Shown in pieces: positions 31,205 to 61,110 of a stretch of 64,000 nucleotides of DNA; the first letter of the stretch is position 1, and every line of letters begins with the position of its first letter. The notes beneath the pieces were generated by a model. That model was not told the DNA's origin, did not search any database, and saw only the letters and a program-made list of their open reading frames with translations. Source of the stretch: Myxococcales bacterium (GTDB taxonomy: Bacteria; Myxococcota_A; Polyangia; Haliangiales; Haliangiaceae); NCBI GenBank assembly GCA_043753855.1, contig JAYUVX010000034.1:58860-122859 (forward strand). The letters are read 5' to 3'. The position numbers and the translations under genes are program-made.

Positions 31205-32986
31205 TCAGGCGGTTGTCGCCGGTAGCAGCTGTCGCAGATGCCATGCCTGGGTGACCAGGGCGAGCTGGGCGCGCCGGTTGGTGCGTGCCAGCGAGGACGC
31301 ATGGAAGCCCGCGACCACCACGGTGGCGAGCGTGGCACCGACCACCAGCGCGAACGTGCGGGTCTGCGAGATCACGAGGGCACCGGCATGACTGAACAGG
31401 CCTCCATCGCGCAGCTCCCACGTCATGCTGAGCAGACCGCGGGCTTCGAGCGCTAGCGGGATGATGAAGCTCGCGACCATCAGCAGGATCAGCACCCACG
31501 ATCGCTGGATGAACGCCGGATACGACATCGCTGACATCGTCACCACGCAGGTCAGCGCGGGCACGAAGGTGAAGGATCCCGCCATCCGCCCCAGCAACGC
31601 GAGCAGCACGCCGTTGGCGATCGCGTAGAGCACCATCTCGACGAACGAGCGCTGCGGCTGTTTGCGAATCGCCCACGCCGCGCCCGCCAGTACCAGCGCG
31701 GCGACGAACACGGCGAGCACCTCCGGCCACTTGCGGATCCCGTTCCACGCGGCGAGCGGCAGGAACGATGCGATCGCGAGGTACGCAACGATCGCGGTGC
31801 GCGCGTGCTTGCGCACCCCGTCGAGATCCGCCTCGCGCAAGGCGGCGAGCAGCTGCGGAGGTGGATCTTTGGGCGGCTCGAGCACGAGGGACGAGATCAG
31901 CGCCGCCGCACCATCGAGCTCGGGATCGAGGGCCAGCGCACGCCCTGCCGCGTGCATTGCCTCCGCGCGGTCCGCGCGGTCGTGAGCGCCGCGCGCGCGG
32001 AGCAGCTGCTCTCGCGCGACGTCCTTGCGGCGCGCGAGGTCGCGATCTCCGTCGAGGTAGGCCTGGATCCGCTCGGCGATCTGCCGTGCACTCGGTCGTG
32101 CGCTGCCATCCATCGCGAGCGCGGATGCGCACAACAGGTCGAGCTCGGGAGGGATCGCGAGGTCGGGAAACCGCGCGGCCGGGGACACCACCGTGGTGAC
32201 GCTCAGCGTGCTCGCGATCGCCGCCTGCGACCGCCGCGGATGCACGGGTTGCTTGGTCAAGATCTCGAACAGCAACGAACCGAGCGCATAGACGTCGACC
32301 GGGCGGCCGACCTCGCCCGCGGAGTGCAGCTGTTCGGGGGCGATGTAGCCCGGAGTCCCGAGCAGCTGGCTCGGCTCGCCGGTGCCGTCGAGGCTGTCGA
32401 GATCCGTGGTGACGACCTCGGTGACACCATCGCCGAGCACGCGCGCGAGGCCCCAGTCGAGCACGTAGACCTCGCCAAAATCGCCGAGCATGATGTTCGA
32501 GGGCTTCAGGTCGCGGTGGACCACGCCGCGCATGTGCGCGAACTCGACGGCGAGGCACACCTCCGCGAACGCGCGCAGCAGGCGCTGACTGGTCGGCGGC
32601 TCGGCGGGGAGCTGATCGCGAAGCGTCTGCCCGCTCAGCCGCTTCATCGTGAAGTACGGGCGACCGAGCGGATCCTTGCCGAGCTCGTGGACCGGCACGA
32701 TCGCGGGATGATCGAGCCGTGCCTGGATCCGTGCCTCTCGCACGAACCGGCTGACCTCCGTTGCCGTCGGCTGATCCGCGTTGAGGCGCTTGAGCGCGAC
32801 ATCGCGGCCGATCCGCAGGTCGTGCGCCTTCACCACCTCGCCCATCCCGCCGCGTCCGATCACCTCGCCGAGCACGTACGCGGAGAGCGGCGTCTGCGGG
32901 GGATCGAACGCAGGATCCGCGGCGACGCTGTCCGCTCGCCCGGGCCTGACGACCGTGTAGGGGTCATCGCCATCCGTCACTGCCAT
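31205..32986 (-). CDS. Ser/Thr protein kinase with C-terminal multi-TM domain
   Basis: GRGGMGEVVKA, VALKRL, HRDLKPSNIML, DWGLA, GTPGYIAPEQ, then about 6 TM helices. Start at the internal ATG MAVTDGDDP of ORF 31205..33304. Confidence 0.88.
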   Translation of the reverse strand: MAVTDGDDPYTVVRPGRADSVAADPAFDPPQTPLSAYVLGEVIGRGGMGEVVKAHDLRIGRDVALKRLNADQPTATEVSRFVREARIQARLDHPAIVPVHELGKDPLGRPYFTMKRLSGQTLRDQLPAEPPTSQRLLRAFAEVCLAVEFAHMRGVVHRDLKPSNIMLGDFGEVYVLDWGLARVLGDGVTEVVTTDLDSLDGTGEPSQLLGTPGYIAPEQLHSAGEVGRPVDVYALGSLLFEILTKQPVHPRRSQAAIASTLSVTTVVSPAARFPDLAIPPELDLLCASALAMDGSARPSARQIAERIQAYLDGDRDLARRKDVAREQLLRARGAHDRADRAEAMHAAGRALALDPELDGAAALISSLVLEPPKDPPPQLLAALREADLDGVRKHARTAIVAYLAIASFLPLAAWNGIRKWPEVLAVFVAALVLAGAAWAIRKQPQRSFVEMVLYAIANGVLLALLGRMAGSFTFVPALTCVVTMSAMSYPAFIQRSWVLILLMVASFIIPLALEARGLLSMTWELRDGGLFSHAGALVISQTRTFALVVGATLATVVVAGFHASSLARTNRRAQLALVTQAWHLRQLLPATTA

Positions 32987-33182
32987 CCCGATATCGTACG
33001 GGAATCCGGGGCTTCGCGATCCGGCGGACTGGTATCTGATCGGACGGATCCAGGAGCAGCTCGGGTTTCGCGACGACGCGATCGCTGCGTACAAGCGCGT
33101 GAAGCCGACGCCCGATCGCACCTTTCCGACCGCCGGTGGATTCGCGATGCGTCGGCTGAAGCTGCTCGGCGTCGCCAGATAG
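32961..33182 (+). pseudogene. Start-less C-terminal fragment of a TPR-like protein
   Basis: Hand translation: ..GNPGLRDPADWYLIGRIQEQLGFRDDAIAAYKRVKPTPDRTFPTAGGFAMRRLKLLGVAR*. Bounded upstream by TAG 32958-32960 with no start codon before the motif. Confidence 0.4.
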
Positions 33183-33207
33183 TGATAGATAGTGCTACCA
33201 CCCGTCC

Positions 33208-33777
33208 GTGGCGCCGCCGCTCGTCCAGAAGTCGGTCTCGATTCCTCTGACGTCCGATGGAACGGCGCGGATCGTGGCGGTGGCGGACAGCCACTCGCAG
33301 CCACACGCGCGCACGGTGGAGCATCTGAAGGCGCTCGCGCCCGATGCGATCCTGCACGCCGGTGACATCGGCGATCTTGCCGTGCTCGAGGAGCTGCGCG
33401 CGATCGCTCCGCTCCACGCCGTGCGCGGCAACATCGATACGCGCGCGAACGAGCTGCCGGATGTCCTCACGCTCGAGCTCTCCGGCGGTGGCCGTATGCT
33501 GCGCATGCTGATGACGCACATCGCGGTGTACGGACCGAAGATCCGCGCCGATGTCGCGAAGCTCGCGCGAGCCGCGCAGGCATCGCTGATCGTATGTGGC
33601 CACTCGCATGTGCCGTTCATCGGCCAGGACCGCGGCCTGACGGTGTTCAATCCCGGATCGATCGGGCCCCGGAGATTTCACCTTCCGATCGTGTTCGGCA
33701 CCATCCACATCACCTCCACCGGTGTACGGCTCGCTCACGTCGACTGCGAGACCGGCGCCGCGTGGTCTCCGCCCTGA
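33208..33777 (+). CDS. YfcE/MJ0936-type metallophosphoesterase
   Basis: [32 protein letters not shown] are the calcineurin-like phosphoesterase motif series. Confidence 0.85.
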
Positions 33778-41635: not shown

Positions 41636-45448
<3,813 letters not shown>

Positions 45449-46449: not shown

Positions 46450-46841
46450 CACGGGCCCGGGTGCAAGGAACATGCGCGATGCGCCAGTGGCCTCGTTTGC
46501 TCGTGCGGCGCGTGTGACCGGCCGAAACGCTGGGCATCGTTCACGCACGTTCACGCTGACTACTGTTCACGACACGGTGCGCTCAGCATAAAAGAGAGTG
46601 GTCAAAGGGCAGGTACGCGTTCGACGTCGGTCAGGCGGTGCATTGTGTCGGGGCTTCATGTGGAACCGATCGCGTGGAGCTGGGGGGGACGAATCTTCCT
46701 TGCGCTGCTCGCTTCGGACGATCCCAGGAGGAAGCTCAACCAGCTGATGTTCGCGGCGGGGCGCGGTGGCGGCGATCGGCGGCTGAGGCAAGCAGGCAAC
46801 GGTGGACCGCCGCGCCGGCCTCTGGCGTAAGCTCGTCGCGC

Positions 46842-48551
46842 GTGCAATCCGAGATCAGGCCAGCGACCGACGCGACGATCGCCGAGCCCACGGCAGGCAA
46901 CGAGGTGACGCGCGACGGGGTGAATCACCTCTCGCACGACAGGCCACCCGCGGTCGCCGCGGCGCTGCACGTCGAGGAGACCTCGCGGACGCACGGATTC
47001 TCGACGGCGGTCGCGGTGATGAGCGCCATCGCGCTCGGGTTCGTGCCGGCGTTCGGCGGCCGGGTCGTCGACGAGGCAGCCTTCATCGCTGCGCTCGTCC
47101 TGGCGCTCGTGACCTCGCTCATCGTTCGCCATCGATGTGCTGATCCGCGACGATACACGAAGCGGGTGTTTCGAATCTTCGGCTTCGTTCTCACAACGAT
47201 CTCGTTCGAGGTCATCTATCGCGTCGGGGTGCTATCGCCGGCGCCGATCGTTCTCACCCTCGGCGTCACCGCGCTCGGTCTCGGACTCGACCGCCGGTTC
47301 GCGCTCGCGATCACGGTGTACGGCATTGCTGGGTATGCGACGCTCGCGTCCCTCGTCGTCGGCGGCACGATCCCGGACGCCGGCTTGATCCGCACCGACG
47401 AGCTGTCCACGGTCGCCAAGATCTTCGGCGTCGTGGTGCCGCCGGTCGTGTTGCTGATCACGCTCGGGCTGGCGCGTCTGTCGCGTCGGACCCTCGAGAG
47501 GGCGGCGACGGACTGTCACGCGGCGCTGCGGCTCGCAAGTCAACAGGAAGCGCTGCTCGCCGAAGCTCACCAGAACCTCGATGACGCACTTCATGTCGGG
47601 GTTCGACGTCGTGGCCCGTGGACGGGGCAGCTAGCCGGTTCGTGGAAGCTGCTCGAGGTCGTCGGCAGCGGAGCCATGGGCGATGTCTACGCAGGGCGGC
47701 ACACCGACACCAACGAGCCAGCGGCCGTGAAGATCTTGCATCACGCGGCTGCGCTCAGCGAGATCTCGATCGAACGCTTCGAACGTGAGGGAAAGATCAC
47801 CAGCGCGCTGCAATCTCCAAACGTCGTGACGGTGTACGAGACCGGACGGATCTCTGCGCTGATCCCGTACCTCGCGATGGAGCTCCTCCAGGGCGAAGAC
47901 CTCGCCCGACTGTTCAGGCGAATCCGGATCCTGCCGCCGGCGGAGGTCCAGGAGCTCGCGCGGCAAGTCGCCTGCGGGCTCGACGCGGCGCACGCGCAGG
48001 GGATCATTCATCGCGATCTCAAGCCGCAGAATCTGTTCCGGGTTGGCGTCGATCGCTGGAAGATCCTCGACTTCGGTGTGTCCACGCTCGCCGGGTCACG
48101 AGGCACGCTGACGCAGGCCGCGCTGGTCGGGACGCCCAGCTACATGGCGCCCGAACAGGCGCGCGCGGAGCGGGTCGATGCGCGATGTGACGTGTTCGCG
48201 CTGGGCGCGGTGCTGTACCGAGCCATCGTTGGTCGGCAAGCCTTCGGCGCGCCCAACACGCCGCAGGTCCTGTTCAACGTTGTCTACCGGATGCCACCCC
48301 GCCCTGGAGAGCTCGTCGATCGGATTCCACCGGATGTCGACTCGGTCCTCGCGCTCGCGCTTGCCAAGCGGCGCGACGACCGCTTCGCGACCGCCGGTGA
48401 GCTATCCCGGTCGTTGGCCGCGGCATATCGCCACGCGATCGCCCCCGAGCTTCGCGTGCGTGCAGAGCTGGTGTTGCGCAAGCATCCGTGGGGACAAGCG
48501 ATCTCACTCGACCACGAACACCGCACCAACCGGCTCCCTCATCCGCGCTGA
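46842..48551 (+). CDS. Ser/Thr protein kinase with N-terminal multi-TM domain
   Basis: About 6 TM helices and a coiled coil, then the kinase (GSGAMGDVYAG, AVKIL, HRDLKPQNLF, DFGVS, GTPSYMAPEQ). Start uncertain: GTG 46842 or ATG 46638. Confidence 0.85.
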   Translation: MQSEIRPATDATIAEPTAGNEVTRDGVNHLSHDRPPAVAAALHVEETSRTHGFSTAVAVMSAIALGFVPAFGGRVVDEAAFIAALVLALVTSLIVRHRCADPRRYTKRVFRIFGFVLTTISFEVIYRVGVLSPAPIVLTLGVTALGLGLDRRFALAITVYGIAGYATLASLVVGGTIPDAGLIRTDELSTVAKIFGVVVPPVVLLITLGLARLSRRTLERAATDCHAALRLASQQEALLAEAHQNLDDALHVGVRRRGPWTGQLAGSWKLLEVVGSGAMGDVYAGRHTDTNEPAAVKILHHAAALSEISIERFEREGKITSALQSPNVVTVYETGRISALIPYLAMELLQGEDLARLFRRIRILPPAEVQELARQVACGLDAAHAQGIIHRDLKPQNLFRVGVDRWKILDFGVSTLAGSRGTLTQAALVGTPSYMAPEQARAERVDARCDVFALGAVLYRAIVGRQAFGAPNTPQVLFNVVYRMPPRPGELVDRIPPDVDSVLALALAKRRDDRFATAGELSRSLAAAYRHAIAPELRVRAELVLRKHPWGQAISLDHEHRTNRLPHPR

Positions 48552-49271
48552 CCCGAGGGTGCGTGCATAGGCACGCTCGGTCGCGTCTCGCAGCGACGAA
48601 CAGCTCCCGAACAGGCCGTGGAGAATCATGTGATAGCGGGTCTGGCGACTCTCGTTGACGACGTGATGAACATGACTGAGGTCGAGGAGGAACGCCGCGC
48701 CCGTGCGCATCGGGAGGACGCCATCGCCCAACGTGAAGCGGCAACCGTCGGGCATGTTCAGCACGACGTTGAGGCCGATCATGCTCGGGAGCTTCCAGTC
48801 CGTATGTGGCGCGACGTATCCGCCCGGATCGAGAGCCATGTAGCGCGTCCGAAACAACGTCGCGCCCGCGAACCTGGCTGCACACCAGCGCTGCGTCTGC
48901 GGCGCACGCTCCGCGACCTCGTCGCACCAGCGGTACGGGGCCGCCAGGTCCGATGCGTAGCCATACGTGCGAGCGCCTTGCGTGTGGCTCGCTGATAGAC
49001 CGCGAAGACACAGCGCTCTCCATCCGCGGTGTTCATACTCGCCGTCGCGGTGGGGGACGAAGCGCTCGTCGAGCGCGATGGCCTCCTCGATCAACTCCGG
49101 CGGAACCGCGAGGTCGATCTCGAGGTACGGCAGTCCGCCGCGGAAGATGATCCAATAGTACGAACCGGGCGTCGCGAGGTCGTCTCGCAGGATCGCGAGC
49201 TCCCGATGCTGGGCGGGCAAGCCAAATGCTCGCTGGAAGTGGGCGATCAGGTCGGCGTCGGTCATTTGCAT
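48504..49271 (-). CDS. Aspartyl/asparaginyl beta-hydroxylase-like Fe(II)/2-oxoglutarate oxygenase (cupin)
   Basis: GGYVAPHTDW..LNVVLNMP..FLLDLSHVHHVVNESRQTRYHMIL matches the AspH/LpxO-type pattern PH.D..H.V.N.S..R. GAGGAA SD precedes the start, 1 nt after the upstream stop. Confidence 0.7.
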   Translation of the reverse strand: MQMTDADLIAHFQRAFGLPAQHRELAILRDDLATPGSYYWIIFRGGLPYLEIDLAVPPELIEEAIALDERFVPHRDGEYEHRGWRALCLRGLSASHTQGARTYGYASDLAAPYRWCDEVAERAPQTQRWCAARFAGATLFRTRYMALDPGGYVAPHTDWKLPSMIGLNVVLNMPDGCRFTLGDGVLPMRTGAAFLLDLSHVHHVVNESRQTRYHMILHGLFGSCSSLRDATERAYARTLGSARMREPVGAVFVVE

Positions 49272-49272
49272 C

Positions 49273-50769
49273 TCAGGTTCCTCGTGTGGAGAACAGCGCG
49301 GCCGCGGCCAAGCCAAGCCGCAGCAGCAAGAGGCGAGCCTCGAGCTGGTCGACGGCGGGCAGCGCTCGCACGAACGCGGGACGGAAGTGTGCCAGGATCC
49401 GCCGCTCGCCCAGCACGAGCTCGACGAGCTGCTGTTGCAACCGGGGGTCGCCGAGCGCGGCGACGTAGTCAACCGTGACGCCATAGGACCTCGCGGGTGG
49501 CTCTTCGGGGCGGTCAGGGTTCGCGGCCAGGTGGGCGCGTCGCTCGGCGCGCCACTCGACCGGCAAGCGGCGGTGCAACTCGACGAGGTCGACGTCGTGG
49601 AACGGCGTGACGACGCTGCGCACGCTCGCCATCAGCGCGCGGTTGATGTTCCACAGCACGAAGCGGTTCTCGAGCGAGACCCGTTCGAGGCACGCACCCA
49701 GCGACTCGTCGCCGCGTGGGGCTGCGACCGCGAGGATCTCCTCGACGGCCTGCGTCGCCGGTCCGCGCAGATCATCGAGCATGTTCGCCTTCAGCAGCGG
49801 GGTCAGGGACACGATCTTGTTCGCGACCACGCGCTGCGCGATCCACCACGGTAGCGATTCGACATCATCTGGAGCGGCCGCGACGACGTGAGGCTCCCAG
49901 CCGTGGGTCCCCAGCCACAGCCCGCCCGCCGGGAGGTCCTGCAGAGGCCGCGGGCCCATCGGCAAGGTCGCGAACGTGTTCTCGCTTGGATCTGCCACGA
50001 CGTTCGCCCACTCGACCATCGCGGTGACGGCATCGCGAAAGTCGACGCCGATGACGTGGTGCTTGACCGCTGCTCCGGAAGTCAACCTGCGCGCGGCGAT
50101 CACATCACCCGCCGTGTCGGGGCCAAACGTGACCGCCTCGAGCGGAACCCCTCGCTCGCGCGCGCGTCTCCACATCGCACGTGAATCGACACCGCCCGAG
50201 AGCAAGAGCAGGATCGGCGTCCGCGCGTTCGAGATGGCACGCTCGACCGCCACATCCTCCGCGCCGGCGAGATCGCGGGGATCAGCATCGGCCGGTTCGT
50301 CGTCGGGGAACTGCCAGTATCGGGAGCTCGCTCCGGTGGCGAGGTCGAACCAGGTGCCGGGCGGAAGCCGCTGCACGCCCTCGAACAAGGTGCGTGTGCT
50401 CGGGATGTGGCCGAACGTGAGGAGGGAGCAGAGGGCTGTCGGATCCATCGGATGTCCGCGCTCGACGAGCCGCGCTGGGTTGGACGCCACGGCTCCTCCA
50501 CGGCGATAGGCGAGTCGGGATCCGAGGCGGTCTGTGGCGACCTTTGTGCCGTGCGTTACGACGAACGAGCCGTCGTACGCGGACAGCCGGTCGTCACGGT
50601 CGAACCTCGGCTTGGGGCCCGTGCGGTGAGTGACCGGACCGGAGAACGTCAAGGCGTTGACTGGCGTGGGACTGGCCTTCGCCGACGTCTCCTCCGCTCT
50701 GTTGACCTGCGCAACGCTCGCGTTGCTGCGCGCCCCATGTTCTTGGGGCTTACCATTGAGGAAGCTCAT
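49273..50769 (-). CDS. Asparagine synthetase B-like ATP-dependent (PP-loop) enzyme without glutaminase nucleophile
   Basis: LLLSGGVDS PP-loop and AsnB-type linker LLTFGHIPSTRTLFEGVQRLPPGTWF. The N-terminus is MSFLNGK.. (no Cys2), and only about 100 aa precede the synthetase domain. Confidence 0.75.
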   Translation of the reverse strand: MSFLNGKPQEHGARSNASVAQVNRAEETSAKASPTPVNALTFSGPVTHRTGPKPRFDRDDRLSAYDGSFVVTHGTKVATDRLGSRLAYRRGGAVASNPARLVERGHPMDPTALCSLLTFGHIPSTRTLFEGVQRLPPGTWFDLATGASSRYWQFPDDEPADADPRDLAGAEDVAVERAISNARTPILLLLSGGVDSRAMWRRARERGVPLEAVTFGPDTAGDVIAARRLTSGAAVKHHVIGVDFRDAVTAMVEWANVVADPSENTFATLPMGPRPLQDLPAGGLWLGTHGWEPHVVAAAPDDVESLPWWIAQRVVANKIVSLTPLLKANMLDDLRGPATQAVEEILAVAAPRGDESLGACLERVSLENRFVLWNINRALMASVRSVVTPFHDVDLVELHRRLPVEWRAERRAHLAANPDRPEEPPARSYGVTVDYVAALGDPRLQQQLVELVLGERRILAHFRPAFVRALPAVDQLEARLLLLRLGLAAAALFSTRGT

Positions 50770-50990: not shown

Positions 50991-51006
50991 TGGCGCGGCG
51001 CTTGCT
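50991..51006 (+). promoter_or_regulatory. Sigma-54-type -24/-12 promoter candidate (TGGCGC-N5-TTGCT)
   Basis: 10 of 11 consensus positions of TGGCAC-N5-TTGCW, with the GG and GC doublets correctly spaced. 17 nt upstream of the precursor ATG. A sigma-54 activator gene is in the same array. Confidence 0.45.
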
Positions 51007-51022: not shown

Positions 51023-51199
51023 ATGAACAAGAACATTGCATCGAACCCCATCAACCAGTCCGAAGTCACCTCCACCAACGAGGAGCTGCCGGTCGCCGCT
51101 GAGTCTGCCGAGGAGCTCTCGGCCGAGGATCTGCGCAAGGCACTCGGCGGCGCGGGCCCGTCGAGGAACGTCGCGACCTGCGGCGACTACAACCTCTAG
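51023..51199 (+). CDS. Candidate RiPP precursor peptide (58 aa) with double-glycine leader
   Basis: MNKNIASNPINQSEVTSTNEELPVAAESAEELSAEDLRKALGG/AGPSRNVATCGDYNL. The leader matches LSxxELxxIxGG. High GC3. Sits directly upstream of the modifying-enzyme genes. Confidence 0.65.
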   Translation: MNKNIASNPINQSEVTSTNEELPVAAESAEELSAEDLRKALGGAGPSRNVATCGDYNL

Positions 51200-51327: not shown

Positions 51328-51828
51328 ATGATCCGCCCAATCACCGACCATGACGCCGCCTCGTTCGTAGCGCTTTCGATCGCGCTTGATAGCGAGACCG
51401 AATACATGCTGTTCGAGCCAGGAGAGCGCACGCTCACCGTCGAAGACCAGCGCCGGCGAATCGCGACGATCCAGGCGGGGACCACGCAGGTCGTGCTTGT
51501 TGCCGACGACGATTCCAGCATCGTGGGATTTGTCGGCGCCTCGCGGGGCGCTGCACGCCGGAACAAACACTCCGCGAGCTTCGTGATCGGTGTCCTCGCG
51601 GCACACGCTCGCCGCGGCATCGGAACGGCGCTCCTCGTCGAGCTCGAGGCGTGGGCGCGCCGCACGGACGTGCACCGACTCGAGTTGACCGTGATCGAGC
51701 AGAACGAGCGCGCCCGCGCTCTGTACGTGAAGCAGGGATTTCAGGTCGAGGGGCGAAAACGGCACTCGCTGCAGATCGCCGGCCGCTGGGTCGACGAGGT
51801 CGCGATGGCCAAACTACTCGCGGAGTGA
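51328..51828 (+). CDS. GNAT family N-acetyltransferase
   Basis: Acetyl-CoA-binding motif A region ARRGIGTALLVELEAWA and ELTVIEQNERARALYVKQGF. 166 aa. Confidence 0.85.
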   Translation: MIRPITDHDAASFVALSIALDSETEYMLFEPGERTLTVEDQRRRIATIQAGTTQVVLVADDDSSIVGFVGASRGAARRNKHSASFVIGVLAAHARRGIGTALLVELEAWARRTDVHRLELTVIEQNERARALYVKQGFQVEGRKRHSLQIAGRWVDEVAMAKLLAE

Positions 51829-51832
51829 CTTC

Positions 51833-52924
51833 ATGCAACTCGGCATCGGCTTCAATCCACGTTACTTGACAGGCGAGCTGACGTGTCCAAGCAACGCGTC
51901 GTACCTGGAAGCCGGGGCGAGCTTGCTGCTCGCGTCGCCTACCTTGCCGGCGGTCTTCTCGGCGATCCGGGAGACTTCACTCCACCTCTCGCGCGCACCC
52001 TTCTGCGAGGCGCCTGCTGTCCAGGAGCGCTTCGCGGCGAAGCTCGCGGCCCGCCTGCCGGCCACGGTGTCGTCGGTCGGACTCCACCTCGGAGGCCCCT
52101 ACGCGACGGACCTCGGCTTCTTCGGGCTGGGGACCGCCTATCTCCCGACCCCCGACAACGAGCGCCGCGCGCGGCATCTGCTCGAGCTGTTGATCGACGC
52201 GACCGGACGCCGCGTGCTGATCGAGAACGCGAACTACTACGATCAGACGCTGGGGCAGGCCGCGGCCACCTTGGCGACCCAGAATCGCCTGTGCGAATGC
52301 CCCGGGGTCGGGCTGATCCTCGACCTCTCGCACCTCACGATGGGAGCGCACAACCTCGGCGTCGCGCCCGACTTCTTGCTCGGGATGATCGACCTCGAGA
52401 AGGTAGCCGTGATCCACTTGTCGGGAATCTCGGAAGGCCGAGATGGCGCCTATCATGACGGGCATCAGCTGCCGGTCCATCCTCGCGTGTGGGAGCTGCT
52501 GGATCGTACGCTCGCGGTCATCGGCCGGCCGGTGACGCTGGTGCTCGAGCACTCGGATCCACGCTGGACGAACGCCAACGCTGGCTTCGCGCGAGACTGG
52601 GATCAGCTCCGCGCGGCGTCGGTAGCGCCAGCGCCACGCCTGCCGGCGTTCCCGATCGATCCGGACCAGGTCGCGATCGGATACATGGCGAACGTGGTCC
52701 TTCCACAACGCTTGCCTGCCGTGCATGCCGAGCTCGGTCGGCCGGCATTCGATGCGCTCGTGCGCGCCTGGGCTCCGGCGTACCTCCACCGCGTTCGCAG
52801 CCAACCGCAAGCGACCGTGGTGTTGCGCGAGGACGAGCGAGATTTCTACGGTGGCATGCTCCACGACCCCGTGGCGGACTTCGTCGGCGAGTTGCAGCGC
52901 CGAGCGGGGGTGGAGACATGCTGA
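51833..52924 (+). CDS. DUF692 / MNIO (multinuclear non-haem iron oxidase) family enzyme with about 100-aa C-terminal extension
   Basis: Motif series SLHLS, GLHLGG, VLIENANYY, LILDLSHL, VIHLSG, YHDGHQLPV, LVLEHSD parallels the MbnB/TglH ligands. The extension ..LPQRLPAVHAELGRPAFDALVRAWAPAY.. resembles a DUF2063 partner N-domain. Confidence 0.75.
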   Translation: MQLGIGFNPRYLTGELTCPSNASYLEAGASLLLASPTLPAVFSAIRETSLHLSRAPFCEAPAVQERFAAKLAARLPATVSSVGLHLGGPYATDLGFFGLGTAYLPTPDNERRARHLLELLIDATGRRVLIENANYYDQTLGQAAATLATQNRLCECPGVGLILDLSHLTMGAHNLGVAPDFLLGMIDLEKVAVIHLSGISEGRDGAYHDGHQLPVHPRVWELLDRTLAVIGRPVTLVLEHSDPRWTNANAGFARDWDQLRAASVAPAPRLPAFPIDPDQVAIGYMANVVLPQRLPAVHAELGRPAFDALVRAWAPAYLHRVRSQPQATVVLREDERDFYGGMLHDPVADFVGELQRRAGVETC

Positions 52925-53715
52925 CGATGAGCGTGAACAACCTCAGCGAGTTCGGGCTGGCCAAGGCCGTGCTCGCGGAGGCTGGACTGTCCCGACTCGA
53001 TTGCGTGGAGATCCTCTGGGACAACTACTGCCACCTCGACCCGGGCGCGCTGGCGGCGATGGTCGCGCGGTTCAGTGATCGCGTCTCGATGCACGTGATG
53101 TGGTCACAGTTCCTCGAGCGCGACGCGGAGTCCTGGAAGGCGTATCTCGCGCAGCTGCGCGCTCACGTTCGCGTGCTGCGTCCGATCGCGGTCTCCGACC
53201 ACCTGTGTCGATTCCGGTCCGAAGCGCTGCGCCTGCTCATTCCGCAGGAGCATGACTATCGCGCCCTCGACCACGTCTGCGAGCGGGTCTCCGAGTATCA
53301 GGAGGCGCTCCAGCAGCCGCTGGCGCTCGAAAACTTCGCATCCACCGAGATCCACGCGACCCGCCAGATCGAATTCCTCGACGCGGTGAGCGCGCGGACA
53401 GGTTGCGGCATCTTGTTCGATGTCTCGAACGCCGTCGTCGGCGAGCTCAACGGGCTCGGCCCGGTCGACCTCTGGCTCCAGTGGCTCGCCGGCCGCACGA
53501 TCCAGCTTCACGTCGGTAGCTACGCGTTCAACGAAGGCAGTGGTCTCTATCACGATACGCACAACTCCGACGTCTCGACGGAGACGACACGACGACTTAC
53601 CGAAGCGATGCAGGTGATGCGGGTGACGAGCGTGTGCTACGAACGTGACTATCAGAAGACGGTCGCCTCGATGGCCGGCGACCTTCGCAGCATTCACGCG
53701 GCGGTGCTCGCGTGA
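52918..53715 (+). CDS. Second DUF692 / MNIO family enzyme (paralogue)
   Basis: DCVEILWDNY, SMHVMW, SDHLCRF, PLALENFAS, ILFDVSNAVV, IQLHVGSY, YHDTHNSDV, VCYERDY closely follow the UPF0276/DUF692 consensus. The ATG overlaps the upstream stop (ATGCTGA). Confidence 0.8.
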   Translation: MLTMSVNNLSEFGLAKAVLAEAGLSRLDCVEILWDNYCHLDPGALAAMVARFSDRVSMHVMWSQFLERDAESWKAYLAQLRAHVRVLRPIAVSDHLCRFRSEALRLLIPQEHDYRALDHVCERVSEYQEALQQPLALENFASTEIHATRQIEFLDAVSARTGCGILFDVSNAVVGELNGLGPVDLWLQWLAGRTIQLHVGSYAFNEGSGLYHDTHNSDVSTETTRRLTEAMQVMRVTSVCYERDYQKTVASMAGDLRSIHAAVLA

Positions 53716-54110
53716 CCCTCGAAGAGCGCGTCCGGCGGTTGACGCTCAAGCAGATCTACCAGCGACAAGAGGAGCCCTCCGCGCTACCGACCCACCTGCT
53801 GTGGCAAGCGCCGCTCGCGGCGGCAGCACCCAATGATCCGGTCGGCGTCCTCAGCGCTCGGATGGAGCTCGCCGGCCGGTTGTGGTTGCGCAACCTGGAT
53901 CTGCGCTTCTCGAGGCGGCTCATCATCTCGCACTGCGAGGAGCCGCTGAGCTACGTGTTCCAGCGTGCGAACCTACCGGACGAGACGAACCTCGTCGCCG
54001 GACCGTCTCGGGTGTCGTTGCTGCGGCATGGTCCGACGATGTTTCACCTGCCCATCCGGTTTTTCGAATCCCTCGAGACCTACGACCGAACGCTGTTTGC
54101 CAGCTTCTGA
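53712..54110 (+). CDS. Hypothetical 132-aa protein translationally coupled to the MNIO pair
   Basis: GTGA start/stop overlap with the second MNIO gene. High GC3. No family recognised by eye. Confidence 0.5.
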   Translation: MTLEERVRRLTLKQIYQRQEEPSALPTHLLWQAPLAAAAPNDPVGVLSARMELAGRLWLRNLDLRFSRRLIISHCEEPLSYVFQRANLPDETNLVAGPSRVSLLRHGPTMFHLPIRFFESLETYDRTLFASF

Positions 54111-54160: not shown

Positions 54161-55890
<1,730 letters not shown>

Positions 55891-55894
<4 letters not shown>

Positions 55895-57851: not shown

Positions 57852-58031
57852 CTAGGAGGAAGGCGGAAGACGAGGGTCCCGCGCAGGAACAGGTGGGTCG
57901 TCGAACAGGATACGCCGAGGAGGCGTATCGACGTCGTCGAGCTGACCGGAACGCACCGTCCAGATGAAGGCTGCAACTGCCGCGCCAGCGACGAGCAGGG
58001 CGAGCGGCAACACGATGTAGAGCGAGATCAC
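57852..58031 (-). CDS. ccoS: cbb3-type cytochrome oxidase assembly protein CcoS
   Basis: Not in the ORF track (59 aa). Hand translation: [45 protein letters not shown]... The GTG overlaps the ccoI stop (GTGA). Confidence 0.8.
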
Positions 58032-60424
58032 GAGGTCCTCCGGAACGCTCGCGACCGCAGCGAGCTGGCGAGCACCGTCAGCGAGCTGAGCGGCATCACG
58101 AGTGCGGCGATCAACGGATGAATAACTCCGACCACCGCGAGCGTCCCGGCGGTCAGGTTGTAGATCAAGGACAGGCGCAGGTTGCGGCGAATTGTCGCGA
58201 GCGTCGCGCGTGCGCCGGCAACCGTCGCGGCGATGTCACCGATCGCCGGCGAGCGCAGGTAGACGTCCGCGGTCTCGATCGCGATCTCGGCCGAGCCAGC
58301 GACCGCGATCCCGGCGGTGGCTGCTGCCATCGCCGCCGCATCGTTGACACCATCGCCCACCATCACCACCGGGCCCGCGAGCCGTCGCTCGACGACCCGG
58401 GCCACCTTGTCCTCGGGGCTCGCTCCGCCGTGACAGCGATCGGCGGGGATCCCGAGCGCAGCTCCTATGCGCCGCGCCACCCGCGCGTCGTCGCCGGACA
58501 GCAGCTCGAGCTGCCAGCCCGCCGCGGTGAGCTCGTCGAGCGCGGCTTTTGCGTCGGGACGGATCGGATCCGCCAGCCCCGCAACGGCGACCGCGCGCTG
58601 ATCGACGGCGATCACGATCGGAGTCTCGCCGCGCTCGGCGACCTCTGCGATCCATGCCTCGATCCCGGGATGACACGACGTTCGCGCGCGCACCCACGGC
58701 GGCGCACCGACGATCACCTCGTGACCCCCGACCAGACCGGCGATGCCGCGACCGAGCTCCTCCTCGATCTGGAGGGCCACGAGTGGTGAGGTCGCGTGAG
58801 CTCGCAACGCGCGCGCGATCGGATGATCACTCCCCGCCTCGACGGCCACCGCGAGCCCGACCGCATCGACATCGCCGCGCCAGGAGACCACGGCGAGCTT
58901 GCCGGCGGTCAGCGTGCCGGTCTTGTCGACGAACATCGTGCCCGGGGTCGCGAGCCGCTCGAGCGCATCGGCACCCTTGATCAGCACGCCCCGTTTCGCC
59001 GCACGGCCGAGGGCCACGGTGACGGCGAGCGGCGTGGCGAGTGCGAGTGCGCACGGACACGTGACGATCAGCAGGGCCATCGCATTCTCGGCGCCGACCT
59101 CGAGCGACACCGCCGCCGTCCACGCCAGCAACGTGATCAAGGCCGCGAACGTCACGATCTTCACGAACTGGCCGGCGATCTGATCGACCAGCCGCTCGAT
59201 CGGCGCCTTGCGTGCGGACATCGCCTCGATCGCGGCCACCAGCCGACCGATCCGCGTGGTCTCGCCGATCGCGGTCGCACGGATGATCAACGGTGCCGCC
59301 AGGTTCGCGGTGCCGGCGTTCACCGGATCTCCAGCGGAGACCTCGATCGGCCGCGACTCGCCGGTCAGCAGCCCGACATCGAGCGCCGAACGACCCTCGA
59401 CGATCACGCCATCGACCGGGATGACGTCGCCGACGAGGACCTTGACGAGATCGCCGGGCACGATCGCTTCGATCGGCACCTCGACGACGACGACGCCATC
59501 GATCCGTCGCGCGCGACCCGGCGTCAGGGCGAGCAGCAGCTCGGCGGAGGTCGACGCGCGTCGCTGGTGACGCAGCACGACCCAGCGGGCGACCAGCAGC
59601 AGGAACACCAGCATCGCGAGGCTGTCGAAGTAGATCTCGCCGGTGCCGCGCAGCACGTTTGCCGAGCCCCAGCCGAGACCGGCGAGGATCCCGATCGAGA
59701 GCGGCAGGTCGAGGTGGAGCCGGCGCGCGCGGAGTGCACCGATCGCGGTGCGGAACATCGGGGTCGCCGCGTAGCCGAGCCCGGGCACCGCGACCAGCAT
59801 CGAGTACCAGCGGAACAACGTCGCATCGGCGCGCGCCATCCCGCCGAACAGTCCGCAGTACAGCGCGATCGAGAGCAGCATGAGGTTGCCCATCGCGGCC
59901 CCCGCCACGCCGAGCTTCGCGAGCAGCGCGCGATCCTCCTTGCGTCGCGCCCCATCGCGGTCGAGCCCACGGTACGGATGCGGCGGATGGCCGACGCCGT
60001 CGAGGAACCGGGCGATCGTCGACAGCGACACCGCGCGCGGATCCCACGTCACATCTGCCCGGCTCCGCCCCAGATCGACGCGGACCTCCAGCGTGCCGGG
60101 CACGCACCGCGGCGCACTCTCGACCAGCCAGATGCAGGCGGTGCATCTCAGATCCTCGAGGTAGAGCGCCGCGTGTGCCATGCCGCTCGCGGCGAGCTGG
60201 ACATGCACGCGCTGAAACGCCGGATCATCGAGCTCGGAGTACGCGCGCCCGGTCGCGTTCGCGGGTGCGGCGTCCTCGCGGAGCGCATAGAACTGCTCGA
60301 GCCCGTTGGCCCTGATCGCGGTGTAGACCACCTCGCAGCCGCTGCAGCAGAACTCCGCACGGCCCACGGGCACCGGGAGGCCGCAGTGGATACACGGAGC
60401 GAGCTGCGCCAGCGCCGCCGTCAC
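58028..60424 (-). CDS. ccoI: Heavy-metal (copper) translocating P1B-type ATPase CcoI/FixI
   Basis: N-terminal [30 protein letters not shown], phosphorylation site [20 protein letters not shown]. The GTG start overlaps the upstream stop. Confidence 0.9.
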
Positions 60425-61110
60425 GTACCGGCCTTGGCATGGCAATGCGGAGCCGTCACACCGCCGGGGCCCGCGTCGCGCCACCGGCTCGCGAGCGTGA
60501 CGAGGCCGAGCGCGATCAGCACGCACGCCGTGATCACCGGCAGCCGGCCGCGCAGCCGAGCGAGCAGCGGTCCTGCGATCGCGAGCACGCCGGTCATCGC
60601 CGGCACGGTACCGAGCCAGAACACCAGCATCACCAGCGCACCCGACGCCGCGTGGCCGGTCCCCGCAGCGGTGACGACGAATGCCCATAGCCATCCGCAT
60701 GGCAACAGGCCCGTGAGCACGCCGATCAAGGCTGCGCGGGTCACCGCACGTCGACCACGCAGCTGGACGAGCCCGCGCTGAAACAGCACGCCGCTCTGCG
60801 CGGGTCCACGTAGCCAGCCGCGCGCCACCGCGATCGCATGGACACCCCAGCCGACGATCATCAGTCCCGAGACGATGGTGGCGACGTGCTGCACGCTCGC
60901 GAGGTCACCCGCCAGATCGACGGCGCCACCGACGAGGCCTGCGATCGTGCCGAGCACCACGTAGGTCGCCAGCCGCCCGAGCGAATGAACGAGCGCGAGC
61001 CGGATCGATCGCGCGCCGCCGTGCATGCCGACCAGCGGACCGCACATCGCCACGCAGTGCACGCTGCCGATCAAGCTCGATACGAAGATCGTGGCAGCGA
61101 GCGCGCTCAT
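60421..61110 (-). CDS. TauE/SafE-like (DsbD_2-type) membrane protein of cbb3 clusters
   Basis: N-terminal GSVHCVAMCGPL motif, 6 TM helices, second Cys pair LLPCGW. Start/stop overlaps on both sides. Confidence 0.65.
   Translation of the reverse strand: MSALAATIFVSSLIGSVHCVAMCGPLVGMHGGARSIRLALVHSLGRLATYVVLGTIAGLVGGAVDLAGDLASVQHVATIVSGLMIVGWGVHAIAVARGWLRGPAQSGVLFQRGLVQLRGRRAVTRAALIGVLTGLLPCGWLWAFVVTAAGTGHAASGALVMLVFWLGTVPAMTGVLAIAGPLLARLRGRLPVITACVLIALGLVTLASRWRDAGPGGVTAPHCHAKAGT

What the first reader, a model, noticed from the sequence alone, without database searches (positions are those of the whole stretch)
51833..53715. Two adjacent MNIO paralogues that both keep the putative iron ligands; the first carries a DUF2063-like tail
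Both proteins show the ordered His/Glu/Asp motifs expected for the di- or tri-iron site. MNIO-1 has SLHLS, GLHLGG, IENANYY, LDLSH, IHLSG, HDGH and LEHSD. MNIO-2 has MHV, SDHLC, LENF, FDVSN, LHVGS, HDTH and YERD. So neither looks like a dead scaffold. MNIO-1 also has about 100 extra C-terminal residues (..LPQRLPAVHAELGRPAFDALVRAWAPAY..) that resemble the N-domain of DUF2063 partner proteins such as BufC/HvfC, suggesting an enzyme-partner fusion. The pair could be a heteromer or could perform two successive oxidations.
Basis: inference. Interest (0 to 1): 0.8.

Follow-up and report, generated by a model that had tools for sequence, protein, structure and literature searches.

The report
Mov-type methanobactin-like peptide gene cluster
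The two adjacent iron enzymes are the MovX-like and MbnB-like pair of a "mov"-type methanobactin-like peptide cluster, a known two-step pathway found here in a new host with a different leader peptide and a different helper protein.

Summary
Window 51833-52924 and 52918-53715 encode two MNIO (PF05114) enzymes, and both keep every iron-ligand position. MNIO-1 has about 95 extra C-terminal residues, conserved in all 25 relatives.

The pair is not a new kind of duo. It is a mov / Group V methanobactin-like cassette.
- The precursor (51023-51199) ends in TCGDYNL. Vibrio MovA/VcMbnA ends in TCG[SA][YF]NK, with the same spacing.
- The gene order is that of Vibrio: precursor, X, B, then a small gene.
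- MNIO-1 is 32% identical to Vibrio fluvialis MovX (E 1e-47). It scores 232 bits on a MovX-only HMM, against 61 or less for BufB and 34 or less for MbnB.
- MNIO-2 is MbnB-like (7TCR, E 7e-33).

The tail is homologous to the MovX C-terminal domain (hhalign 87%, P 4e-6). Its likeness to DUF2063 is marginal (14%, P 0.002; Pfam E 0.07; no Foldseek match). The Vibrio-type tails show no such likeness.

Most likely there are two successive oxidations. MNIO-2 plus the 132-aa protein modify the Thr-Cys. MNIO-1 then cuts the Asn N-Cα bond and leaves Tyr-NH2.

The differences from Vibrio are a double-glycine leader, a helper protein with no MbnC similarity, an in-cassette GNAT, and the host taxa. This is a new variant of a known kind, of moderate interest.

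The parts
50991..51005 (+). Possible sigma-54 type -24/-12 promoter element (TGGCGCGGCGCTTGC), 18 nt upstream of the precursor ATG. Tentative.
   Evidence: Pattern search: 7 loose matches in the window against 1.66 expected. No equivalent element was seen upstream of the precursors in L003 and L005.
51023..51199 (+). Precursor peptide, 58 aa: MNKNIASNPINQSEVTSTNEELPVAAESAEELSAEDLRKALGG|AGPSRNVATCGDYNL. It has a double-glycine leader. The core ends in the MovA-type motif T-C-G-x-Y-N-x.
   Evidence: ORF. The C-terminal TCG[SD]Y motif is conserved in the precursors of L003, L005, L007 and L008. It has the same spacing as V. caribbenthicus VcMbnA (MKNDKKVVVKVKDKEMTCGAFNK, PMC8888699) and as the V. 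fluvialis, Paludibacterium, Photorhabdus and Achromobacter MovA peptides.
51328..51828 (+). GNAT N-acetyltransferase (166 aa), a conserved member of the cassette.
   Evidence: PF00583/PF13302. Present next to MNIO-1 in L003, L005, L007 and L008. It is 36% identical (E 2e-36) to the GNAT in the Photorhabdus kleinii mov locus.
51833..52630 (+). MNIO-1 catalytic TIM-barrel domain (aa 1-266), of the MovX type. Ligand positions are H51, H85, E131, D164, H167, H195, D209, H211 and E239.
   Evidence: PF05114. BLASTP to V. fluvialis MovX gives 32% identity, E 1e-47. A MovX-family HMM scores it at 232 bits, against 61 or less for BufB and 34 or less for MbnB-like proteins. Foldseek best hits are TglH and MbnB.
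52631..52924 (+). MNIO-1 C-terminal extra domain (aa 267-363): three helices, then strand-helix-strand-helix. It is homologous to the MovX C-terminal domain.
   Evidence: AF2 pLDDT 91 for the full protein and 90.6 for the tail alone. Conserved in 25 of 25 relatives. hhalign against the MovX tails gives Prob 87%, P 3.8e-6. The DUF2063 signal is marginal only. No PDB fold match.
52918..53715 (+). MNIO-2, an MbnB-like MNIO (265 aa). Ligand positions are H59, H95, E138, D168, N171, H198, D213, H215 and E242, plus the MbnB general-base position D244.
   Evidence: phmmer to MbnB 7TCR gives E 7e-33, to 7FC0 7e-28, and to VcMbnB 7DZ9 2.6e-21. TIGR04159 scores 157.7 bits, below its cut-off of 325. Ligand table.
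53712..54110 (+). Conserved 132-aa protein, translationally coupled to MNIO-2 (GTGA overlap). It sits where MbnC/MovC sits and is the presumed partner of MNIO-2.
   Evidence: It follows the MNIO-2-type gene in 7 of 7 loci, including two cyanobacterial plasmids that lack MNIO-1. It has no Pfam or NCBIfam hit and no PF27805 on record. It shows no significant similarity to MbnC or MovC.
54161..55894 (+). FHA-domain sigma-54 enhancer-binding protein directly downstream. A possible regulator; whether it belongs to the cluster is not established.
   Evidence: PF00498, PF00158 and PF02954. Gene start taken from the call in L001.

Best explanation
The locus is a mov-type (Group V methanobactin-like) RiPP cassette in a high-GC genome. 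The genome is probably from Myxococcota, which is an inference.

Proposed pathway:
1. The 58-aa precursor carries a double-glycine leader and a core ending in ...A-T-C-G-D-Y-N-L.
2. MNIO-2 is an MbnB-like multi-iron oxidase. Together with the co-translated 132-aa protein, which occupies the MbnC/MovC position, it carries out the four-electron oxidation of the single Cys in the Thr-Cys dyad. The product is an oxazolone/thioamide, or possibly the isomeric 5-thiooxazole.
3. MNIO-1 is a MovX-clade MNIO. Its own C-terminal domain stands in for a separate partner protein. It then oxidatively cleaves the N-Cα bond of the Asn that follows Tyr. This releases the last two residues and leaves a C-terminal Tyr-amide.
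4. The conserved GNAT probably acetylates the peptide. In related loci a C39-peptidase ABC transporter removes the leader and exports the product.

Shown here: the homologies, ligand conservation, precursor motif, gene order and co-occurrence. Inferred by homology to the published Mov pathway: the chemistry and the order of steps.
For: - Precursor. The C-terminal T-C-G-x-[Y/F]-N-x motif has the same spacing as VcMbnA (PMC8888699) and as MovA in four proteobacterial loci.
- Gene order. Precursor, weakly DUF692-like ORF, MbnB, extra ORF is the order described for Group V operons (PMC3621798) and seen in V. fluvialis L022.
- MNIO-1. BLASTP to MovX gives E 1e-47. A MovX-only HMM scores all 25 MNIO-1 relatives at 200-267 bits, with a clean gap to BufB (51-61) and MbnB/MovB/MNIO-2 (7-34). 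Both groups share the clade signature D-x-x-H in place of D-x-x-N: 61 of 61 MovX and 25 of 25 MNIO-1 relatives. The tails are homologous.
- MNIO-2. It is MbnB-like with all ligands and the ERD base.
- Small protein. It always follows the MNIO-2-type gene. The pair also occurs on its own in Anabaena and Planktothrix plasmids.
- GNAT. It is orthologous to the GNAT of the Photorhabdus mov locus.
- Literature. MovX makes a C-terminal amide at Asn and needs no partner (PMC12452194 Table 1; PMC11252979; PMC13056109). The Mov XBC product carries the Cys-derived heterocycle (PMC12538549).
Against: - No experiment exists on this cluster.
- The primary MovX paper (Chioti et al., JACS 2024, PMC11062405) could not be read here. 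The step order and the 'Thr-Cys dyad / penultimate Asn' details rest on my memory of its abstract and on citing papers.
- MNIO-1 is only 32% identical to MovX.
- The small protein has no detectable similarity to MbnC or MovC. Its partner role is inferred from position alone.
- One relative (L008) has TCGDYIITVA with no Asn, and L007 has ...YNIL. The cleavage rule may therefore differ in this subfamily.
- No exporter lies next to the cassette in this window.
- The identity of the MovBC-type Cys modification is itself disputed (10.64898/2026.06.05.730506).
Confidence: 0.75

Rival explanations
1. The two MNIOs form an obligate heteromer that acts together on the single Cys. MNIO-1 supplies the substrate-binding tail and MNIO-2 supplies the chemistry, or the reverse.
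For: The genes overlap by 7 nt. They co-occur in all five full cassettes. Both keep complete metal sites.
Against: MNIO-2-type genes with the small protein occur without any MNIO-1 on the Anabaena and Planktothrix plasmids. MbnB-type enzymes pair with MbnC (PMC8888699). MovX is reported to act without a partner (PMC11252979, PMC13056109). The precursor conserves a second, non-Cys target, Y-N-x.
Confidence: 0.07
2. MNIO-1 is a fusion of an MNIO with a DUF2063-type (BufC/HvfC N-domain) partner. On this view the MovX tail is a very remote derivative of DUF2063.
For: DUF2063 is the only family that gives any signal. Pfam PF09836 appears in 2 of 12 tails at E 0.07. hhalign gives P 0.002 and aligns GY.AN...LP.R.P.L...LG..F to the core VYRNN...L...YP...G..F motif. 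Column-shuffle nulls never reach the score: 0 of 200 and 0 of 100. Four other partner profiles give nothing.
Against: hhalign probability is only 14%. A block-shuffle null reaches 27.7 against the observed 25.8. The tail HMM finds no DUF2063 protein among 1.84 billion sequences. Foldseek on a pLDDT-90 tail model finds neither 3DEE nor anything else. The larger MovX tail profile has no DUF2063 signal (P 0.69).
Confidence: 0.2
3. MNIO-1 performs a reaction different from MovX in this subfamily, for example cleavage after Tyr whatever the next residue is, or oxidation of Tyr or Asp.
For: The follower is variable: NL, NI, NV, NIL, and IITVA with no Asn. Identity to Vibrio MovX is only 32%. The tail is diverged beyond HMMER detection.
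Against: Four of five precursors keep Y-N. All ligand positions and clade-specific motifs (ENANFY, DLSHL, HLSGI, DGxxHDGH, EHSD) are shared with MovX.
Confidence: 0.12

Closest known systems
mov cluster / Group V methanobactin-like operon (Vibrio caribbenthicus, V. fluvialis, Photorhabdus): MovA, MovX, MovB, MovC. Sources: Chioti et al. JACS 2024; Kenney & Rosenzweig 2013, PMC3621798; Dou et al. 2022, PMC8888699.
   Same: - Precursor C-terminus T-C-G-x-[Y/F]-N-x with a single Cys.
- Gene order: precursor, X, B, small ORF.
- MovX-clade MNIO of about 360 aa with a homologous C-terminal domain and the D-x-x-H ligand signature.
- MbnB-like second MNIO with overlapping genes.
- An orthologous GNAT in the Photorhabdus locus.
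   Different: - The precursor is 53-115 aa with a double-glycine leader (Sec-like in one case), not a 22-23-aa K/V-rich peptide.
- The protein after the MbnB-like gene is 129-156 aa with no PF27805/MbnC similarity.
- The last residue is hydrophobic (L/I/V) or a longer follower, not Lys.
- Relatives carry C39-ABC exporters rather than MATE.
- The GNAT sits between the precursor and MNIO-1.
- Hosts are a high-GC, probably myxobacterial genome, Nannocystales and cyanobacterial MAGs, and metagenomes.
Canonical methanobactin MbnB/MbnC (Methylosinus trichosporium OB3b, PDB 7TCR; Rugamonas 7FC0)
   Same: MNIO-2 aligns end to end with MbnB (E 7e-33). It keeps all nine ligand positions and the general-base Asp. 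A small partner gene overlaps its 3' end.
   Different: It scores below the TIGR04159 equivalog cut-off (157.7 against 325). There is one Cys instead of two or more. The cluster has no MbnC homologue, no MbnM/MbnT/MbnPH genes, and an extra MovX-type enzyme.
Bufferin BufB/BufC and oxazolin HvfB/HvfC (MNIO plus a DUF2063-RRE partner)
   Same: An MNIO works with a substrate-recognition module. The MNIO-1 tail has a marginal local resemblance to the core DUF2063 motif.
   Different: In those systems the partner is a separate protein of about 260 aa with a full DUF2063 domain and an RRE domain. Their precursors are Sec-exported and Cys-rich. The BufB model scores MNIO-1 at only 56 bits against a cut-off of 310.
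ApyH/ApyI and TglH/TglI (MNIOs that act at a peptide C-terminus)
   Same: These are also MNIOs that do C-terminal chemistry on a scaffold peptide. TglH is the best solved-structure match to MNIO-1 (Foldseek E 2.5e-12).
   Different: They use separate partner proteins and different substrates (C-terminal Asp or Cys). Sequence similarity is weak: ApyH model 52 bits against a cut-off of 400, and TglH phmmer E 7.5e-6.

Membership tests
MNIO superfamily (PF05114, formerly DUF692) | TIM-barrel fold with a significant PF05114 match | tested here: met
   MNIO-1 scores 64.7 bits and MNIO-2 109.3 bits; the cut-off is 25. The top Foldseek hits for the MNIO-1 model are TglH, MbnB and 3BWW.
MNIO superfamily (PF05114, formerly DUF692) | Complete set of di-/tri-iron ligand positions (H, H, E, D, N, H, D, H, E) | tested here: met
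   MNIO-2 keeps all nine unchanged. MNIO-1 keeps eight and has His at the Asn position. The columns were aligned by hhalign and HMMER to TglH and MbnB. Metal binding itself cannot be tested here.
MovX clade (N-Cα-cleaving, amidating MNIO) | Sequence membership: scores with MovX homologues well above other MNIO subfamilies | tested here: met
   BLASTP to V. fluvialis MovX gives E 1e-47 at 32% identity. A MovX-only HMM gives 232 bits, against 61 or less for BufB and 34 or less for MbnB/MovB.
MovX clade (N-Cα-cleaving, amidating MNIO) | Extra C-terminal domain of about 95 aa fused to the barrel, with no separate partner | tested here: met
   The lengths match (363 against 361 aa). The tail profiles are homologous: hhalign Prob 87%, P 3.8e-6, 84 columns. 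Independence from a partner was not tested.
MovX clade (N-Cα-cleaving, amidating MNIO) | Substrate with Asn near the C-terminus, downstream of the Thr-Cys dyad | tested here: met
   The window precursor ends ...TCGDYNL. Four of five family precursors keep Y-N; L008 does not.
MovX clade (N-Cα-cleaving, amidating MNIO) | Catalysis of N-Cα cleavage that gives a C-terminal amide | not testable with these tools
   This needs expression and MS. The expected change is loss of Asn-Leu with amidation, about -228.11 Da.
mov / Group V Mbn-like gene cluster | MbnB homologue adjacent to MovX | tested here: met
   MNIO-2 against 7TCR gives E 7e-33 and against VcMbnB 7DZ9 gives 2.6e-21. The genes overlap.
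mov / Group V Mbn-like gene cluster | MbnC-like (PF27805) RRE partner after the MbnB homologue | tested here: not met
   A gene is present at that position in 7 of 7 loci. It has no PF27805 on record, whereas MovC in L022, L024, L025 and L026 does. BLASTP finds nothing, hhalign gives P 0.3-0.8, and an HMM against the PDB finds no MbnC.
mov / Group V Mbn-like gene cluster | Short (22-23 aa) leader-core precursor and a MATE exporter | tested here: not met
   The precursor is 58 aa with a GG motif. No exporter is adjacent in the window. C39-ABC transporters are present in L003 and L005.
DUF2063 (PF09836) partner domain, as claimed for the tail | Significant sequence-profile match to PF09836 or BufC N-domains | tested here: inconclusive
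   Pfam best E is 0.071, in 2 of 12 tails. hhalign gives Prob 14%, P 0.002; column-shuffle nulls are exceeded but the block-shuffle null is not. No DUF2063 proteins were found by the tail HMM in 1.84 billion sequences. MovX tails give P 0.69.
DUF2063 (PF09836) partner domain, as claimed for the tail | Structural similarity to NGO1945 (PDB 3DEE) or related partners | tested here: not met
   Foldseek of the tail-only model (pLDDT 90.6) against the PDB gives a best E of 5.3 and no partner protein among the hits.
Methanobactin MbnB equivalog (TIGR04159) | Score above the curated equivalog cut-off | tested here: not met
   MNIO-2 scores 157.7 bits against a cut-off of 325. It is MbnB-like but not a canonical MbnB.

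The most novel reading that the evidence does not exclude
This subfamily may be a functionally distinct branch of the Mov pathway in three ways. First, the MbnB-like enzyme may use a previously unrecognised partner family of about 130 aa, unrelated in sequence to MbnC, DUF2063 or TglI. That partner also works with MbnB-like enzymes alone on cyanobacterial plasmids. Second, the MovX-like enzyme may trim followers of variable length and sequence after a TCGxY motif, including one without Asn, which would make it a more general C-terminal amidating enzyme. Third, the MovX tail may be a cryptic remnant of a DUF2063 partner, which would link fused and separate partner architectures in evolution.
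Probability: 0.3. Interest if true: 0.55.

Novelty: new variant of a known kind. Interest (0 to 1): 0.38.

Why it matters
It extends the mov-type methanobactin-like pathway to new hosts: a high-GC, probably myxobacterial genome, Nannocystales and cyanobacterial MAGs, and metagenomes. MovX is the only MNIO system known to amidate a peptide C-terminus by N-Cα cleavage.

It shows that the TCGx[Y/F]N core, the MovX/MbnB-like enzyme pair and a GNAT travel together across very different leader and export systems.

It gives a 25-member sister group to MovX with an invariant His-for-Asn ligand swap. That is useful for working out what sets the reaction outcome in MNIOs.

It flags a new candidate partner family for MbnB-like enzymes.

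The predicted product, a small peptide with a Cys-derived heterocycle and a Tyr-amide, is a plausible metal-binding natural product and worth expressing. As a discovery it is incremental rather than a new kind of system.

Tried and rejected
- Single-sequence Pfam and NCBIfam scans of the tail, the small protein and the precursor gave no hits. The local Pfam copy lacks PF27805, because V. fluvialis MovC also gets no hit. The negative result for MbnC-like therefore rests on the precomputed annotations.
- HMM searches of the MNIO-1 family, the tail and the small protein against PDB sequences found only the barrel. There was no 3DEE and no MbnC.
- Foldseek on the full MNIO-1 model is dominated by TIM barrels. 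The tail-only model gives no significant hit.
- The tail HMM against 1.84 billion representatives found only 23 hits. They are essentially all MNIOs with the same tail, plus two repetitive oddities, P0026 and P0028. It did not reach Vibrio MovX; only profile-profile comparison connected the two tails.
- hhalign of the tails against MbnC, MovC and the small protein found nothing.
- hhalign of the small protein against MbnC/MovC repeatedly picked the same A..W...D...hhh segment, but never significantly.
- tblastn of MNIO-1 against plasmids found no full-length relative.
- The genome-contig scan found only two further loci.
- The primary MovX paper and the 2024 MNIO review are not held.
- I considered that the Asn-synthase-like and Asp/Asn-hydroxylase-like genes upstream belong to the cluster. 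I set this aside because they are absent from all related loci.
- I considered sigma-54 control. A good motif exists in this window, but it is not conserved in L003 or L005.
Full report
**Observation.** Window 51833-53715 holds two overlapping + strand genes. MNIO-1 is 51833-52924 (363 aa). MNIO-2 is 52918-53715 (265 aa), and its ATG overlaps the MNIO-1 stop as ATGCTGA. Both match PF05114 MbnB_TglH_ChrH.

MNIO-2 aligns end to end with solved MbnB structures: 7TCR E 7e-33, 7FC0 7e-28, and Vibrio caribbenthicus 7DZ9 2.6e-21. MNIO-1 is much more divergent. Its best solved relative is TglH, at E 7.5e-6 with the single sequence and 9e-13 with a family profile.

**Iron ligands.** The published ligands are these.
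- TglH: H71, H107, E151, D184, N187, H216, D229, H231, E258 (PMC10880893).
- VcMbnB: H55, H91, E135, D165, N168, H194, D209, H211, E238, plus the general base D240 (PMC8888699).

A profile-profile alignment of the MNIO-1 family against the MNIO-2/MbnB family (hhalign Prob 98%, E 8e-14) puts the following residues in the same columns.

| MNIO-1 | H51 | H85 | E131 | D164 | H167 | H195 | D209 | H211 | E239 |
|---|---|---|---|---|---|---|---|---|---|
| MNIO-2 | H59 | H95 | E138 | D168 | N171 | H198 | D213 | H215 | E242 |

All nine positions are invariant in 25 of 25 MNIO-1 relatives that share only 34-65% identity with it. They are also invariant in 10 of 10 MNIO-2/MbnB sequences. MNIO-2 keeps the MbnB general-base Asp (ERD). 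So neither enzyme is a dead scaffold. The only change is that MNIO-1 has His where MbnB and TglH have the Asn ligand.

**What the locus is.** MNIO-1 has few close relatives: 11 in a 5.8-billion-protein search. The genome-representative scan added two loci. In every locus with enough flank the same cassette recurs:
- a small precursor ORF;
- a GNAT;
- MNIO-1;
- MNIO-2;
- an unannotated protein of 129-156 aa that overlaps the MNIO-2 stop.

The precursors all end in TCG[SD]Y plus a short follower.

| Locus | Precursor C-terminus |
|---|---|
| window | ...LGG/AGPSRNVATCGDYNL |
| L003 | ...MTCGSYNI |
| L005 | ...TTCGSYNV |
| L007 | ...ATCGSYNIL |
| L008 | ...ATCGDYIITVA |

This is the core of the Group V methanobactin-like precursor. 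VcMbnA is MKNDKKVVVKVKDKEMTCGAFNK (PMC8888699). Group V operons were described as precursor, then an ORF with weak DUF692 similarity, then MbnB, then in Vibrio a further unknown ORF (PMC3621798). That is the same order as here.

**Direct comparison with Vibrio.** I reconstructed VcMbnB residues 25-255 from the PDB alignment. With that I found its homologues and fetched the Vibrio fluvialis locus (L022). Its genes are:
- MovA, MKNEKKVVVKVKDKEMTCGSYNK;
- a 361-aa MNIO, MovX;
- a 262-aa MbnB homologue;
- a PF27805 MbnC-like protein;
- a MATE pump.

The evidence that MNIO-1 belongs to the MovX clade is as follows.
- MNIO-1 against this MovX gives 32% identity over 281 residues, E 1e-47.
- An HMM built only from 61 Vibrio-type MovX homologues scores all 25 MNIO-1 relatives at 200-267 bits. 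The window protein scores 232.
- The same HMM gives 51-61 bits for eight BufB proteins and 7-34 bits for MbnB, MovB and MNIO-2 proteins.
- The His-for-Asn ligand swap is invariant in 61 of 61 MovX homologues too, so it is a clade signature.

The GNAT is 36% identical (E 2e-36) to a GNAT in the Photorhabdus kleinii mov locus.

**The tail.** The last 95 or so residues are conserved in every relative. They are modelled confidently: pLDDT 91 in the full protein and 90.6 alone. The fold is three helices followed by strand-helix-strand-helix.

Tests of the DUF2063 idea gave the following.
- Pfam PF09836 appears in 2 of 12 tails, with best E 0.071. It is the only family to appear at all.
- A tail HMM against 1.84 billion representatives finds 23 proteins. 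These are essentially all 350-380-aa MNIOs with the same tail, and none is a DUF2063 protein.
- Foldseek of the tail model against the PDB finds nothing; the best E is 5.3.
- hhalign against eight BufC/DUF2063 partners taken from plasmid bufferin operons gives Prob 14%, P 0.002, score 25.8. It aligns GY.AN..LP.R.P.L...LG...F with the core VYRNN...L...YP...G...F motif.
- Column-shuffled nulls never reach that score: 0 of 200 and 0 of 100. A block-shuffled null does, with a maximum of 27.7.

By contrast, the MNIO-1 tail profile against the Vibrio-type MovX tail profile gives Prob 87%, P 3.8e-6 and score 34.7 over 84 columns end to end. That is above both nulls, whose maxima are 13.8 and 23.7. 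The MovX tail profile has no DUF2063 signal (P 0.69). Neither tail profile matches MbnC, MovC or the small protein.

The tail is therefore the MovX C-terminal domain. The literature describes that domain as an additional RRE-like or winged-helix domain that lets MovX work without a partner (PMC11252979, PMC12452194, PMC13056109). A very remote DUF2063 origin is not excluded, but it is not demonstrated.

**The small protein.** It follows the MNIO-2-type gene in 7 of 7 loci, with overlapping or abutting coding regions. On the Anabaena cylindrica and Planktothrix agardhii plasmids the pair occurs without any MovX-like gene. This argues that it is the partner of MNIO-2 and that MNIO-1 is a self-contained add-on.

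Homology to MbnC or MovC is not detectable.
- No PF27805 is on record for it, unlike MovC.
- BLASTP finds nothing.
- hhalign gives P 0.3-0.8.
- A profile search of the PDB finds no MbnC.

**Mechanism.** This part is inferred by homology. MNIO-2 and its partner oxidise the Cys of the Thr-Cys dyad by four electrons. Whether the product is an oxazolone/thioamide or a 5-thiooxazole is currently debated for MovA (10.64898/2026.06.05.730506; PMC12538549). MNIO-1 then cleaves the N-Cα bond of the Asn after Tyr, which gives Tyr-NH2 (PMC12452194 Table 1). The step order and the 'Thr-Cys dyad / penultimate Asn' wording come from my memory of Chioti et al., JACS 2024, which I could not open.

The double-glycine leader, and the C39-peptidase ABC transporters in L003 and L005, point to leader removal at export. 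No exporter is adjacent in this window.

**Verdict.** The DUF2063 assignment is unsupported, and the system is a variant of the known mov pathway rather than something new in kind.

The differences from Vibrio are:
- a long GG-type leader (Sec-like in one locus);
- a non-MbnC partner;
- the GNAT inside the cassette;
- variable followers, including one without Asn;
- different exporters;
- new host taxa.

Noticed in passing
window 50991-51005 (+) and 54161-55894 (+): A near-consensus sigma-54 -24/-12 element (TGGCGCGGCGCTTGC) lies 18 nt before the precursor ATG. An FHA-domain sigma-54 enhancer-binding protein is encoded right after the cassette. The loose pattern occurs 7 times in the window against 1.66 expected. 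No equivalent was seen upstream of the L003 or L005 precursors.
   Followed up: partly
window 48504-49484 (-) and 49273-50769 (-): An Asp/Asn beta-hydroxylase-like gene and an asparagine-synthase-like gene are transcribed divergently from the precursor. They are absent from all related cassettes, so it is unknown whether they tailor this peptide.
   Followed up: partly
L009 3824-7194 (Anabaena cylindrica pANACY.04); L011 (Planktothrix agardhii plasmid p1): An MNIO-2-like gene plus the small partner occur as a pair without any MovX-like gene. The 238-aa HEXXH protein at L009 3824-4540, two genes upstream of the MNIO-2-like gene, ends in a Cys-rich tail (FCCDCSSYCSYDPNGCSP) and might be the substrate.
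   Followed up: no
L008 5717-5893; L007 4686-5033: The Nannocystales precursor ends TCGDYIITVA, with no Asn after Tyr. The Halothece precursor is 115 aa with a Sec-signal-like N-terminus and ends TCGSYNIL. The follower and leader rules of this subfamily are therefore looser than in Vibrio.
   Followed up: partly
MNIO-1 H167 (window 52331-52333); MovX family alignments: The Asn iron ligand of MbnB and TglH (N168 / N187) is an invariant His in 61 of 61 MovX homologues and 25 of 25 MNIO-1 relatives (D-x-x-H). This is a clade signature that may bear on the different chemistry.
   Followed up: yes
L026 2796-3997 and 6420-6962 (Photorhabdus kleinii): MovX is split into two ORFs (183 and 200 aa), which suggests a frameshift or pseudogene. 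The locus also carries a GNAT orthologous to the window's GNAT.
   Followed up: partly
L024 5857-7393 (Pendulispora albinea CP089984.1): A myxobacterial MbnB plus PF27805 MbnC-like pair sits with a 47-aa precursor ending ...GAARCAGICAALKL, next to MacB-type ABC genes and an S28/S37 peptidase. This is a different, more canonical Mbn-like cluster.
   Followed up: no
window 58028-60700 (-): A P-type heavy-metal ATPase with a cation-ATPase metal-binding domain lies about 4 kb downstream of the cassette. Any link to a metal-binding peptide is speculative.
   Followed up: no
window 31205-33304 (-), 41636-45448 (+), 46638-48551 (+): There are several Ser/Thr protein kinases, one fused to an AAA/NACHT-type ATPase. 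Together with 64-71% GC across the window (about 68% on average) and the sigma-54/FHA regulator, this fits a myxobacterial genome. The organism was not identified.
   Followed up: no
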